From Escherichia coli (GTDB lineage: Bacteria; Pseudomonadota; Gammaproteobacteria; Enterobacterales; Enterobacteriaceae): DNA of 64,000 bases. How positions within the stretch are numbered: position 1 is the first letter of the stretch; each line of letters opens with the position of its first letter. The stretch is taken from NCBI RefSeq assembly GCF_024223415.1, contig NZ_CP100500.1, one strand, 5' to 3'. Shown in pieces: positions 6,001 through 9,000 of this stretch. Made by a program: the position numbers.

Positions 6001-9000
6001 ACTGCATACCTAATAGGGCTTGCGTAGACTGTTCAACATTCGGTACATAGCCAATCATCCCTAACACAACCGCAATGAAAAAAGCCGCAAAGGCTGAACC
6101 GCCCTTCACCACCATAGTCTGCACGGAGTAAGCGATGCTTTCACAGCGTACGTGCAGTTTATATTCACCGTAATCAACGGTATCTGCCACCATGATGACC
6201 TGTAATACCCAGAAAAGCGCCGTTCCCACATTCAGCAAAATACCCGCAATCACAATGAGGACGACGTTGTGATAGCTCATTAATGCCATTAACAGGAGAA
6301 CACCACAGCTTAACACCGGAAGAATAGATGCTCCGGCCCATAAAATGCGTCGGGATAATGATTTAACTAAGCGTGGGAAGAATACTAACGTCACCAGGTT
6401 AGCAGCTCCCGCATACGACAGATAATAGGGGAACAAATCCGCATCACCGATAACATATGAGAAATAATAGATAGCAAAGCCGGTAATAATGTTGCTGGCT
6501 ACATTATAAGCAAGAGCCATACCCAAGAGGCATGAAAGCTGATCGTTTTTATAAATAAGCGCAACGATGGCTTTAAGTGTCAGATGGCTTCCTTCAGCAG
6601 ACGGTTGATTGTCTGACGAAAAGACTTCATGCACATTGCGCAGAGTGATGATGGTTGAAACAATAAAAAAGGCGATCAGTACCAGTGTGAACATCTGAAA
6701 GCCAAATCCCCGATCGCCACCGCCGACATAATTAACAAATGGTAGCGTCACACCTGCCGTAACAAAGCCCGCCAGACTGGCAAAAAAACGCGGATAAGGA
6801 ACCAGTTGTTCACGCTCACGTTTATCGAGCGTGATGGTTGGAACCAGCGACCAGAAGGGAATATCCATAATGGTGTAAGTCATGCCCCAGAGGATGTAGG
6901 TCACGCAAACAAAGACAATCTGAGTAGTACCTTCAAACAGATGCGCACTAAAGAGGAGAAATAAGATTACAGAGTTTGCCAACGTACCGATCAGGATCCA
7001 GGGTTTGAACTTACCCCATCGCGATCGCGTAGCATTTACAATCCATCCCATAATCGGATCGTTAATAGCATCCCAGATCCTCGCCACCAGAAACAAAGTA
7101 CCGACCAAACCCACAGACAGCCCGACGACATCGGTGTAGTAATACATGAGGTACATATACACAATGCCGATCGCAAAATCCTTCCCGAACGCTCCAAATC
7201 CATAACTGAGTTTTGTAGTCATTGAAATGCTCATAGGGTATCGGGTCGCTGTTACCAACGCCCGCCTTCTGTTATTGGTATCGTCAGAGGTGTGCGCCGG
7301 AATAAATCCCCCGGCGCAGTAGCGTTTAGTCGCGTTTTAACGGTGCAACCAGCCTGGCAGCCAGTCGCCGTGGGCGGCAATCAGGTCGTCAACAAGAGCA
7401 TATATTTCGTCAATGCCCAGCACGGCGGCAGTATGCGGGTCCATCATCGCGGCGTGGTAAACACGGTCGCGATTTTCCGTAAGAATAGCTTCGGTCAGCA
7501 GCGTCTGTACGTTAATGTTGGTTTGCATCAGGGCGGCCAGATGCGAAGGTAGCGTACCGACTTTGGTCGGCTGAATGCCATTAGCATCAACCAGACAGGC
7601 TACTTCCACGCAACATCCTTGTGGCAGGTTATCAATCAAACCATCGTTACGGACGTTGCCGTAAATCACACTCGGCTCGCCCGTCCAGATAGCGTTCATG
7701 ATTGTGCTGGCATATTCCCGTGACGGTTTAATATCAATCCGGGAGGCGTTCTTATACTCCTCCAGCTCTTTATGCCAGTTCGCCAGCTGCTCGACGCAGC
7801 GTTTCGGGTACTCATCCAGCGGTACTTTATAACGCTCAATCAAATCCTCACGACCTGGCTTAATAAACCACGGTGTGTACTCAGCAAAATGTTCTGACGA
7901 TTCCGTGACGAAATAGCCCAGCTTTTTGAACATTTCATAGCGCACAATATTCTGGCAGCGAGTATTGCCGTGAATATTCGGCTTCGGTGCCTGCCCTGCG
8001 TCATAAGCCGCCAGCAGTTCCGGGTAGAGATTCACGTAACTGCCGTCGGCGGTTTTACGCTCCAGCTCCAGGTAAAACGCCATATGGTTGATACCTGCGC
8101 AACGGTAACGCAGCGTAGCCGGGTCGATATTGAGGTCACGCGCCAGCTCTTCCGCCGTTCCCTGCACCGAATGGCACAGCCCGACCTGTTTGATATGCGG
8201 ATAGCGGGCATACATCGCCCAGGTATTCATCGCCATTGGGTTAACATAGTTGAGCATGGTGGCATCGGGGCAGACTTCTGTCATGTCCTCGCAAATTTGC
8301 CACAGATGCGGAATGGTACGTAGCGCGCGCATAATACCGCCCGGCCCCAACGTATCGGCAATGGTTTGTTCCAGACCATGCCGCTTACAGACCTCGAAAT
8401 CAGTCACCGTGCAAGGTTCATAACCGCCAATCTGAAATGCCACCACGACAAAATCGGCATCCTGTAAGGCTTCTTTCTGTTGGGTGTGGCAGGTGATTTT
8501 GCCGCTGGCCCCTGCTGAATCCATCAGCTTACGCACCACAATATGCGACTCTTCCAGGCGGGTGGGGTCAATGTCCATCAGGGCAATATGCGCCGTTTTC
8601 AGCGCCTCGCGATGGAACACATCACCAAGAATATTTTTAACGAAAATCGTCGAACCAGCGCCGATAAATGTAATTTTGGGTGCAGACATCATGCAGATCT
8701 CCTGGCTTGCTTGAATAACTTCATCATGGCAGGCGAATCTGCAGAAAACCTCCGGCTTCCAGGTTGAGCATTCCCATAAACTCAGATCCTGCGTGAAGCA
8801 GCAGTAAATCTGAATTTATGGGAATAATTTACCTGAAAAGCAGAGTTTTCGGCCTCATGATGCTCGGACACTCCCCTCGCCCCTCTGGGAAGAGGGTGAA
8901 AACCGTGCTCCCACTCGCAGTCATCCTCCCTCACTCCTGCCATAATTCTGATATTCCAGGAAAGAGAGCCATCCATGAATACAGATACGTTTATGTGCAG

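What the first reader, a model, noticed from the sequence alone, without database searches (positions are those of the whole stretch)
8861..8935. Family of GC-rich palindromic intergenic repeats at three loci
Three intergenic sites (8861-8935 between melA and melR; 45862-45925 between yjdP and phnP; 54832-54930 between phnE and phnD) share the motif CCCTC(G/T)CCCCnnGGGGAGAGGG(T)TAGGGTGAGGGG with internal inverted symmetry. They are distinct from the REP elements also present. The copy between phnE and phnD lies inside an operon and could form a stable mRNA hairpin separating transport and lyase gene expression; the mel copy sits within a regulatory region.
Basis: seen in the sequence. Interest (0 to 1): 0.3.

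Follow-up and report, generated by a model that had tools for sequence, protein, structure and literature searches.

The report
Known E. coli BoxC triplex-motif repeats
The GC-rich repeats are copies, two intact and two damaged, of the long-known E. coli "BoxC" repeat (also called PIT element or TMECO intrastrand-triplex motif), so the finding is real but ordinary and already published.

Summary
The repeat family is real and far beyond chance, but it is already known. A profile built from the 22 published E. coli K-12 BoxC sequences finds exactly four copies in the 64-kb window.

- **phnD-phnE spacer:** two intact copies in inverted orientation (54824-54874, type A; 54884-54932, type B).
- **yjdP-phnP spacer:** one 5'-truncated copy (45866-45904). 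This is published TMECO locus no. 22.
- **melA-melR spacer:** one hairpin-only remnant (8863-8904) that lacks the third block.

The family has a median of 22 places per genome in 5,408 of 5,426 complete E. coli genomes. Its core recurs almost unchanged in distant phyla.

All three sites are polymorphic through deletions between the element's own short direct repeats. The phnD-phnE spacer has at least six alleles: REP in K-12, a BoxC pair in either orientation, a tandem pair and two collapsed hairpins.

As phn mRNA the pair would fold into a hairpin of about 45 bp (-87 kcal/mol) with no U-tract. It separates phnD from phnE, which are both transporter genes, not transport from lyase. Published tests found no promoter or terminator activity for these elements.

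The mel remnant lies between MelR site 1' and the CRP2 site. It is the least conserved part of that region.

The parts
54824..54874 (+). Intact BoxC/TMECO copy, type A with one mismatched triad. Flank CACGATCGGTT, block 1 CCCTCGCCCC (54835-54844), loop TTC, block 2 GGGGAGAGGG (54848-54857), loop TTA, block 3 GGGTGAGGGG (54861-54870).
   Evidence: nhmmer with the published BoxC profile: HMM positions 2-50, E 4.8e-16. 9/10 triads. Differs from the published type A mm oligo only by TTT>TTC in loop 1.
54884..54931 (-). Intact BoxC/TMECO copy, type B (loop CCG), with the G-rich strand on the minus strand. CCCTCTCCCC-TTT-GGGGAGAGGG-CCG-GGGTGAGGGG, core 54887-54922, flank AGAAAACC abutting the phnD stop codon.
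   Evidence: nhmmer E 4.2e-11. 10/10 triads. The A+B inverted pairing matches what is described for K-12 pairs in PMC4666352.
54824..54931 (-). The A+B pair taken as one palindromic unit inside the phnD-phnE spacer (54803-54931). It is transcribed as part of the phnC-P operon mRNA (minus strand).
   Evidence: The RNA fold of 54803-54936(-) is a hairpin of about 45 bp: -87 kcal/mol, z -9.5. No terminator-like site was found.
45866..45904 (+). 5'-truncated BoxC copy between the convergent genes yjdP (stop 45845-45847) and phnP (stop 45924-45926). Block 1 is reduced to CCCC; blocks 2 and 3 are intact; loop 2 is GTA.
   Evidence: nhmmer HMM positions 5-37, E 2.9e-8. 7/10 triads. K-12 has the full copy plus a second collapsed copy here, identical to eco:21 of PMC2267715 and listed as TMECO 22 in the supplement of PMC4666352. 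The window allele equals the K-12 allele minus 70 bp between CGCCCCTC direct repeats.
8863..8904 (+). Hairpin-only BoxC remnant (a collapsed A+B pair) in the melA-melR intergenic region. Type-A-side flank CTCGGACACTC, CCCTCGCCCC (8874-8883), TCT, GGGAAGAGGG (8887-8896), type-B-side flank TGAAAACC. There is no third block.
   Evidence: nhmmer HMM positions 17-50, E 4.6e-7. Ungapped 35/44 match to the collapsed phnD-phnE allele of strain HCM-24C-3, score 43 against a maximum of 26 in 2000 shuffles. Lies at -90 to -49 relative to the melR start (about 8953), between MelR site 1' (about 8828-8845) and CRP2 (about 8901-8922). Positions were derived from PMC2377442.

Best explanation
These are copies of the E. 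coli BoxC repeat, also published as the PIT element and as TMECO, the 'triplex motif of E. coli'. BoxC is a ~36-nt core (the 'BoxC' literature gives the element as about 50-56 bp with its flanks) made of a pyrimidine block, a complementary purine block and a second purine block. The first two blocks form a hairpin. In isolated single-stranded DNA the third block lies back on the hairpin to give an intrastrand purine-motif triplex.

The repeat is a dispersed, strictly intergenic, chromosomal element with about 20-30 copies per E. coli genome. It occurs singly or as inverted type A + type B pairs. No demonstrated cellular function or mobilising enzyme is known.

Its established consequence is local instability. 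Its internal direct and inverted repeats promote slippage or recombination, which truncates, collapses, duplicates or removes copies. That is what is seen at all three sites in this window:
- an intact pair at phnD-phnE;
- a 5'-truncated copy at yjdP-phnP;
- an old collapsed hairpin at mel.

Inferred, not shown: because the phnD-phnE pair is transcribed inside the phn operon, it should fold as a long RNA hairpin. The most it is likely to do is what REP elements do at the same spot in most E. coli, which is to act as a 3'-exonuclease barrier or processing site that favours phnCD over downstream genes. The mel remnant is most likely passive spacer DNA.
For: Identity:
- The profile of 22 published BoxC sequences hits all four copies with E 5e-16 to 5e-7 and hits nothing else.
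- The K-12 copy at yjdP-phnP is identical to published eco:21 and is TMECO no. 22.
- The type A (TTA) and type B (CCG) loops and the A+B inverted pairing match PMC4666352.

Family properties:
- Median 22 places per genome in 5408 of 5426 E. coli genomes. Only 65 of 105,111 places are on plasmids.
- The copies lie in intergenic spacers.
- The core is conserved in many phyla.

Instability, six alleles of the phnD-phnE spacer:
- REP in K-12 (3875 genomes at >=80% coverage).
- A pair in the opposite orientation in strain 042 (521 genomes).
- A single pair in the window.
- A 127-bp tandem duplication in NCTC10444.
- Collapsed hairpins in HCM-24C-3 and NCTC9064.
- HCM-24C-3 equals the window allele minus 65 bp between the two GGGGAGAGGG direct repeats.

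Further instability: four alleles at yjdP-phnP.

Structure:
- 9/10 and 10/10 triads for the intact copies.
- RNA hairpin of -87 kcal/mol, z -9.5. The REP allele folds at -50.5 kcal/mol, z -4.7.
- Triplex formation in vitro by CD and NMR is published.
Against: - No function has been shown. According to PMC4666352, earlier work (their ref. 41) found no promoter or terminator activity and no in vivo effect on replication, and their own DMS footprinting gave no sign of a stable triplex in vivo.
- The mRNA-stabiliser idea for the phn copy rests only on the predicted fold and on analogy with REP (my own knowledge of malE-malF and hisJ-hisQ). No expression data were available here.
- The published link between these motifs and instability is correlative. 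Intergenic hairpins in general are also somewhat variable.
- How the element spreads, and why its sequence is nearly identical across phyla, remains unexplained.
Confidence: 0.93

Rival explanations
1. One reading: the phnD-phnE copy is a selected intra-operon mRNA hairpin that sets differential expression within the phn operon.
For: - Very stable predicted hairpin, -87 kcal/mol, z -9.5.
- Every sampled allele of this spacer keeps some stem-loop: REP, a pair in either orientation, or a collapsed hairpin.
- The position directly after a periplasmic binding-protein gene is the classic REP position in ABC-transporter operons (own knowledge).
Against: - It separates phnD from phnE, both transporter genes, not transport from lyase.
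- There is no U-tract or terminator.
- The published report that PIT elements lack promoter/terminator activity and do not affect RNA polymerase (PMC4666352).
- The exact single-pair allele is rare. About 71% of genomes carry a REP instead.
- Allele turnover looks like neutral gain and loss.
Confidence: 0.2
2. The mel copy is a functional part of the melR/melAB regulatory region, for example a protein-binding or DNA-bending element, or the donor of the CRP2 half-site.
For: - It lies between MelR site 1' and CRP2, at -90 to -49 relative to the melR start.
- Its right flank GAAAACCGTGC runs into the CRP2 site.
- It is present in 5398 of 5426 genomes.
Against: - In the divergent allele carried by about 19% of genomes, the remnant is the most mutated stretch (ctcctcgcacctccagggagagga) while the MelR sites and promoter elements are conserved.
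- Engineered 10-bp deletions and 41- and 91-bp insertions in this spacer largely preserve repression, so only helical phasing matters (PMC2377442).
- All known sites (1', 1, 2, 2', R, CRP1, CRP2) are accounted for without it.
Confidence: 0.05
3. BoxC pairs are non-autonomous mobile elements (MITE-like) that inserted independently into these spacers, using an unknown trans-acting enzyme. This is not exclusive of the best explanation.
For: - The same phnD-phnE spacer, bounded by the same GGCTCCG and (A/T)TTACTGC flanks, holds the pair in either orientation or a REP.
- Conserved flanks (GTGCNCGATCGG and AGAAAAC) and a conserved ~37-bp linker travel with the core at different loci.
- Pseudomonas sp. 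dw_612 has more than 100 copies, often as ~190-bp units with BoxC-like ends or 125-bp tandem arrays, and it shares the flank GACTGACCG.
- The core is nearly identical across phyla, including the conserved G/A mismatch.
Against: - No target-site duplication could be defined and no empty site was sampled.
- No associated transposase is known, and PMC4666352 found no link to transposons, phages or plasmids.
- Almost all places are chromosomal.
- Most loci are shared among strains, so movement is rare.
Confidence: 0.3
4. The similarity is only GC-richness or chance, or the elements are diverged REP/BIME units.
For: None beyond the shared G+C-rich palindromic character.
Against: - 0 matches in 100 shuffles against 3 observed.
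- HMM E-values down to 5e-16.
- The K-12 REP allele and the BoxC allele of the same spacer share no alignable sequence.
- The Rfam REP-derived naRNA4 hits lie elsewhere in the window.
Confidence: 0.01

Closest known systems
BoxC repeat of E. coli (attributed to 1990s work in PMC4666352; Bachellier et al. is the source cited for BoxC size and copy number in PMC2267715; catalogued in Petrillo et al. 2008, PMC2267715)
   Same: Same sequence family. The window copies match the profile of the 22 K-12 members. The K-12 orthologue of the yjdP-phnP copy is member eco:21. Location is intergenic and copy number is about 20-30 per genome.
   Different: Nothing essential. Two of the four window copies are partial: one is 5'-truncated and one is collapsed to a hairpin.
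PIT elements / TMECO intrastrand triplex motif (Hoyne et al. 2000 as cited in, and Holder et al. 2015, PMC4666352)
   Same: The three-block class II purine-motif architecture, type A (TTA) and type B (CCG) loops, the one-mismatch 'mm' variant, A+B inverted pairs, and deletions that leave a hairpin (their 'palindrome effect'). Intergenic variability between strains is also the same.
   Different: - The mel copy no longer meets the triplex-motif definition because it has no third block.
- The phnD-phnE locus is not among the K-12 loci, because K-12 has a REP there.
REP/BIME elements (the naRNA4/REP325 type is also present in the window)
   Same: Intergenic, GC-rich, palindromic and multi-copy. 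They occupy the very same phnD-phnE spacer in most E. coli and form a stable RNA stem-loop after a binding-protein gene.
   Different: Unrelated sequence and no three-block motif. REPs have a known associated transposase family (RAYT/TnpA-REP, PMC3333891), are about 10-fold more numerous, and have documented mRNA-stabilising effects. BoxC has none of these.
Rho-independent terminators
   Same: A GC-rich stem-loop in intergenic DNA, including between the convergent genes yjdP and phnP.
   Different: No U/T run follows the stem at any of the three sites. Earlier published tests found no terminator activity (cited in PMC4666352).

Membership tests
BoxC / PIT / TMECO | Sequence similarity to the published E. 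coli K-12 members | tested here: met
   A profile of the 22 sequences from the PMC2267715 supplement hits 54824-54874 (E 4.8e-16), 54884-54932 (4.2e-11), 45866-45904 (2.9e-8) and 8863-8899 (4.6e-7), and nothing else in the window.
BoxC / PIT / TMECO | Three consecutive 10-nt blocks (Y-R-R) with 3-nt loops able to form 9-10 base triads | tested here: met
   Met for the two phnD-phnE copies (9/10 and 10/10 triads). Weakened for yjdP-phnP (7/10). NOT met for the mel copy (3/10, no third block). The mel copy is therefore a BoxC-derived remnant, not a triplex motif.
BoxC / PIT / TMECO | Second loop TTA (type A) or CCG (type B); close inverted pairs always combine A with B | tested here: met
   54858-54860 is TTA on the plus strand. 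The partner on the minus strand has CCG. This is the rule stated in PMC4666352. The yjdP-phnP copy has the variant GTA; K-12 has TTA there.
BoxC / PIT / TMECO | Strictly intergenic, chromosomal and dispersed, tens of copies per E. coli genome | tested here: met
   All four copies lie in spacers. Median 22 places per genome, range 1-38, in 5408 of 5426 genomes; 65 of 105,111 places are on plasmids.
BoxC / PIT / TMECO | The G-rich strand folds into a stable intrastrand triplex as isolated ssDNA | not testable with these tools
   Published CD/NMR data (Tm 70-82 C) are for oligos that differ from the 54835-54870 copy by one loop base. The folding tool models only Watson-Crick hairpins.
REP / BIME | REP consensus sequence, with palindromic units arranged as BIMEs | tested here: not met
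   The K-12 REP allele and the window BoxC allele of the same spacer do not align; the alignment breaks exactly at the spacer. The Rfam naRNA4 (REP-derived) hits are at 25781-25851 and 57401-57477 only.
Intrinsic terminator | GC-rich stem-loop immediately followed by a T/U run | tested here: not met
   No terminator-like site overlaps any copy.
MITE (miniature inverted-repeat transposable element) | Terminal inverted repeats plus a target-site duplication, with filled and empty sites | tested here: inconclusive
   Inverted arms, conserved flanks and both orientations at one site were seen. No target-site duplication was identified and no empty allele was sampled.

The most novel reading that the evidence does not exclude
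The phnD-phnE spacer may be a site where selection keeps some strong stem-loop directly after the binding-protein gene, so that unrelated repeat families serve as interchangeable cassettes: REP/BIME, a BoxC pair in either orientation, or its collapsed hairpin. That would give BoxC a REP-like post-transcriptional role (exonuclease barrier or RNase III target). It would also imply that BoxC pairs are still mobile and target the same kind of site as REPs.
Probability: 0.15. Interest if true: 0.4.

Novelty: already known. Interest (0 to 1): 0.12.

Why it matters
It matters little as a discovery. The family, its triplex-forming architecture, its A/B pairing, its intergenic instability and even the yjdP-phnP locus are already published.

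The useful outcomes are three corrections.
- Only one of the three sites has the intact motif.
- The mel copy is a decayed hairpin remnant in non-critical spacer DNA.
- The phn copy sits between two transporter genes.

There is also one neat illustration. A single 130-bp operon spacer shows six alleles built from two unrelated repeat families. This makes it a convenient natural test bed for asking whether such repeats affect mRNA fate, and for measuring repeat-driven deletion and duplication.

Tried and rejected
- **Rfam (gathering thresholds) over the whole window.** There is no family for these repeats. The only hits were STnc630, two naRNA4 and the fdhF SECIS.
- **Terminator and promoter scans at all three sites.** Nothing overlaps the repeats.
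- **DNA hairpin folds of single copies.** They are only modestly better than shuffles (z -1.6 to -2.1), because the tool cannot model triplexes. They are uninformative about the third block.
- **A second BoxC fragment at mel.** 8928-8941 (CCCTCACTCCTGCC) matches the type B start CCCTCACCCCGGCC at 12 of 14 positions. I rejected it as unsupported. The profile does not hit it, I estimate such a match is not rare by chance in C-rich sequence, and the stretch is the conserved melR promoter spacer.
- **G-quadruplex reading of GGGG-N3-GGG-N3-GGG-N3-GGGG.** This is formally possible, but the published NMR favours a triplex for the full oligo. In the phn mRNA the A:B duplex would dominate.
- **Literature after 2015.** A search for a function assigned to BoxC/TMECO found nothing relevant. 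Other 'boxC' hits refer to the rRNA antitermination boxC or the pneumococcal BOX element, which are unrelated.
- **Searches not run.** I did not use protein-homology or structure tools because the feature is non-coding.
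Full report
**Where the window comes from.** The window is an E. coli chromosome segment. It is close to 100% identical to strains NCTC10444, KV7 and SCU-316.
- melA is at 7337-8692 (-) and melR at 8975-9883 (+).
- The phn operon is on the minus strand. phnP ends at 45924, phnE starts at 54802 and phnD ends at 54932.

**Checking the observation.** The purine half of the motif, GGGGAGAGGGNNAGGGTGAGGGG with up to 3 mismatches, occurs three times: 45878+, 54848+ and 54887-. It occurs 0 times in 100 dinucleotide shuffles.
- The phnD-phnE spacer therefore holds two copies in inverted orientation.
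- The mel site is not hit at this stringency.

Reading the sequences directly gives the following.
- phnD-phnE: CCCTCGCCCC-TTC-GGGGAGAGGG-TTA-GGGTGAGGGG on the plus strand, and CCCTCTCCCC-TTT-GGGGAGAGGG-CCG-GGGTGAGGGG on the minus strand.
- yjdP-phnP: catcgCCCC-TCT-GGGGAGAGGG-GTA-GGGTGAGGGG, with block 1 truncated.
- mel: CCCTCGCCCC-TCT-GGGAAGAGGG-TGAAAACC, with no third block.

**Identity.** The literature search showed that this is the E. coli BoxC repeat.
- Petrillo et al. 2008 (PMC2267715) list BoxC among the known E. coli families (56 bp, 32 copies according to the Bachellier et al. reference they cite; 22 recovered by them). They give the member sequences in a supplement.
- Member eco:21 is the exact reverse complement of the K-12 yjdP-phnP copy.
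- Holder et al. 2015 (PMC4666352) treat the same element as TMECO. It was earlier called the PIT element by Maher's group.
- Holder et al. report 23 copies in MG1655, always intergenic. Type A has loop TTA and type B has loop CCG. Five inverted pairs always combine A with B, and a one-mismatch 'mm' form is the most common.
- Their supplement lists TMECO no. 22 between yjdP and phnP.

I built a profile HMM from the 22 published sequences and searched the window.
- It found exactly four independent copies and nothing else: 54824-54874 (E 4.8e-16, full length), 54884-54932 (E 4.2e-11), 45866-45904 (E 2.9e-8, lacking the end of block 1) and 8863-8899 (E 4.6e-7, lacking the third block).
- A triad count gives 9/10, 10/10, 7/10 and 3/10 respectively.
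- The intact type A copy differs from the published type A mm oligonucleotide only in one loop base.
- Rfam has no family for it.

**Family-wide properties checked here.**
- The phnD-phnE pair used as a query finds a median of 22 places per genome (range 1-38) in 5,408 of 5,426 complete E. coli genomes. Only 65 of 105,111 places are on plasmids.
- The E. coli profile matches these with the same core. The match often includes the same G/A mismatch and, in Pseudomonas, the same flank.
- This agrees with the published statement that the motif occurs in more than 260 genomes.

**What is at each site.** All three sites are polymorphic, in ways that follow the element's own repeats.

(i) phnD-phnE spacer. 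All alleles lie between the same flanks, GGCTCCG and (A/T)TTACTGC.
- The window has one A+B pair.
- NCTC10444 has two tandem pairs with a 127-bp period.
- K-12 has a REP/BIME with no BoxC at all. 3,875 of 5,426 genomes match that allele at >=80% coverage.
- Strain 042 has a pair in the opposite orientation. 521 genomes cover the query at >=80%, all of those listed at about 80% identity like 042.
- HCM-24C-3 has CCCTCGCCCCTTCGGGGAGAGGGAGAAAACC. This is the window allele minus the 65 bp between the two direct GGGGAGAGGG repeats.
- NCTC9064 has a collapsed form of the 042 orientation.

(ii) yjdP-phnP spacer.
- K-12 has a collapsed hairpin, a 37-bp linker and a full type A copy.
- The window allele equals the K-12 allele minus 70 bp between CGCCCCTC direct repeats.
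- NCTC9966 keeps only the third block.
- MS1737 keeps only CGCCCCTCACCC.

(iii) mel.
- The copy aligns without gaps to the collapsed HCM-24C-3 allele over 44 nt, including both flanks. It matches at 35/44 positions, with score 43 against a maximum of 26 in 2,000 shuffles.
- It is therefore best read as an old collapsed pair, which Holder et al. call the 'palindrome effect'.
- It is present in 5,398 of 5,426 genomes.
- In the divergent allele carried by about 19% of genomes it is further decayed, while the neighbouring MelR and promoter sites are conserved.

**The mel context.** Samarasinghe et al. 2008 (PMC2377442) give the following:
- site 2 is at -174.5 from the melR start;
- the two transcription starts are 237 bp apart;
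- the -10 hexamer is CATAAT;
- CRP2 is 41 bp upstream of the melR start.

From these I derived this map.

| Feature | Window coordinates |
|---|---|
| MelR site 2 | 8770-8787 |
| MelR site 1 | 8808-8825 |
| MelR site 1' | about 8828-8845 |
| BoxC hairpin | 8874-8896 |
| CRP2 | about 8901-8922 |
| -10 hexamer | 8941-8946 |
| melR +1 | about 8953 |

- The remnant fills the gap between site 1' and CRP2.
- In that paper, 10-bp deletions and 41- or 91-bp insertions downstream of site 1' largely preserved repression, while 5-bp changes did not.
- So the spacer matters for helical phasing, not for its sequence.

**How it most likely works.**

Shown by others:
- The isolated G-rich strand forms a very stable intrastrand triplex (CD and NMR, Tm 70-82 C).
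- With the complementary strand present it is duplex.
- In vivo DMS footprinting gave no sign of a stable triplex.
- Earlier tests found no promoter or terminator activity and no effect on RNA polymerase.
- Loci carrying the motif are more variable between strains than control spacers.

Shown here:
- The allelic series above, with deletion end-points at the element's internal direct repeats and one tandem duplication. This fits slippage or short-homology recombination.

Inferred:
- The phnD-phnE pair is transcribed within the phnC-P mRNA. It is predicted to fold into a near-perfect hairpin of about 45 bp (-87 kcal/mol, z -9.5) with no U-tract.
- The REP allele at the same place also folds strongly (-50.5 kcal/mol, z -4.7).
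- By analogy with REPs after binding-protein genes (malE-malF, hisJ-hisQ; my own knowledge), the hairpin could protect phnCD mRNA from 3' exonucleases or be cut by RNase III. No data support this, and I give it about 0.2.

**Verdict.**
- The feature is already known. Its spread and function remain open questions in the literature, but this window adds only a tidy example, not a new kind of element.

Noticed in passing
window 24268-25741 and 57498-58987 (inverted segment about 25742-57497): Relative to its near-identical relative NCTC10444, and to K-12 gene order, the window carries an inversion of about 33 kb covering yjcO-fdhF-mdtNOP-...-yjdP-phnP..phnC-yjdN. Its ends lie in two inverted copies of IS1397 (an IS3 family element, known to me as BIME-specific). 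Each copy sits next to a REP-derived naRNA4 hit (25781-25851 +, 57401-57477 -). This looks like IS-mediated homologous inversion, or possibly an assembly difference.
   Followed up: partly
window 54803-54931 versus L001 10304-10559, L002 11243-11336, L003, L004, L005: The phnD-phnE spacer is a repeat hot spot. At least six alleles are built from two unrelated families (REP/BIME, and BoxC in both orientations, tandem or collapsed). The window's exact single-pair allele was not seen as such among the listed best hits. Its closest relatives have the tandem form.
   Followed up: yes
L001 10411-10465; L002 2234-2290: A ~37-bp imperfectly palindromic linker, AGAAAAC-G(T/A)GC...AATA..CG.GCACAATCGG, joins a type B end to the next type A start at two different loci (NCTC10444 phnD-phnE and K-12 yjdP-phnP). 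The repeating unit may therefore be larger (about 127 bp) than the 36-56 bp usually quoted.
   Followed up: partly
L052-L088 (Pseudomonas sp. dw_612), e.g. L086 130-295 and L066 290-710: This Pseudomonas genome holds well over 100 BoxC-like copies. Many are ~190-bp units with BoxC-like motifs as outward-facing inverted ends about 131 bp apart, or 125-bp tandem arrays. They share the E. coli flank GACTGACCG. The arrangement looks MITE-like.
   Followed up: partly
L009-L051 (diverse phyla): The core motif, including the conserved mismatched position (GGGGCGAGGG opposite CCCTCTCCCC), is almost identical in Alpha-, Beta-, Gamma- and Deltaproteobacteria, a Desulfotomaculum MAG and one Methanomicrobiaceae MAG. 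This points to horizontal spread or a shared trans-acting factor rather than convergence. MAG contamination was not excluded.
   Followed up: no
window 18391-18556 (-) and 28320-28374 (-): Rfam hits to the sRNA STnc630 (178 bits) and to the fdhF selenocysteine insertion sequence SECIS_2 (87 bits). These are ordinary annotated features unrelated to the finding.
   Followed up: no
window about 44500-45450 and L129 15399-24540: Upstream of yjdP this strain lineage carries a hybrid sensor kinase/response regulator and a sugar ABC transporter / D-lyxose isomerase cluster. K-12 has rpiB-alsRBACEK at this position. This is a strain-specific island next to a BoxC locus.
   Followed up: no
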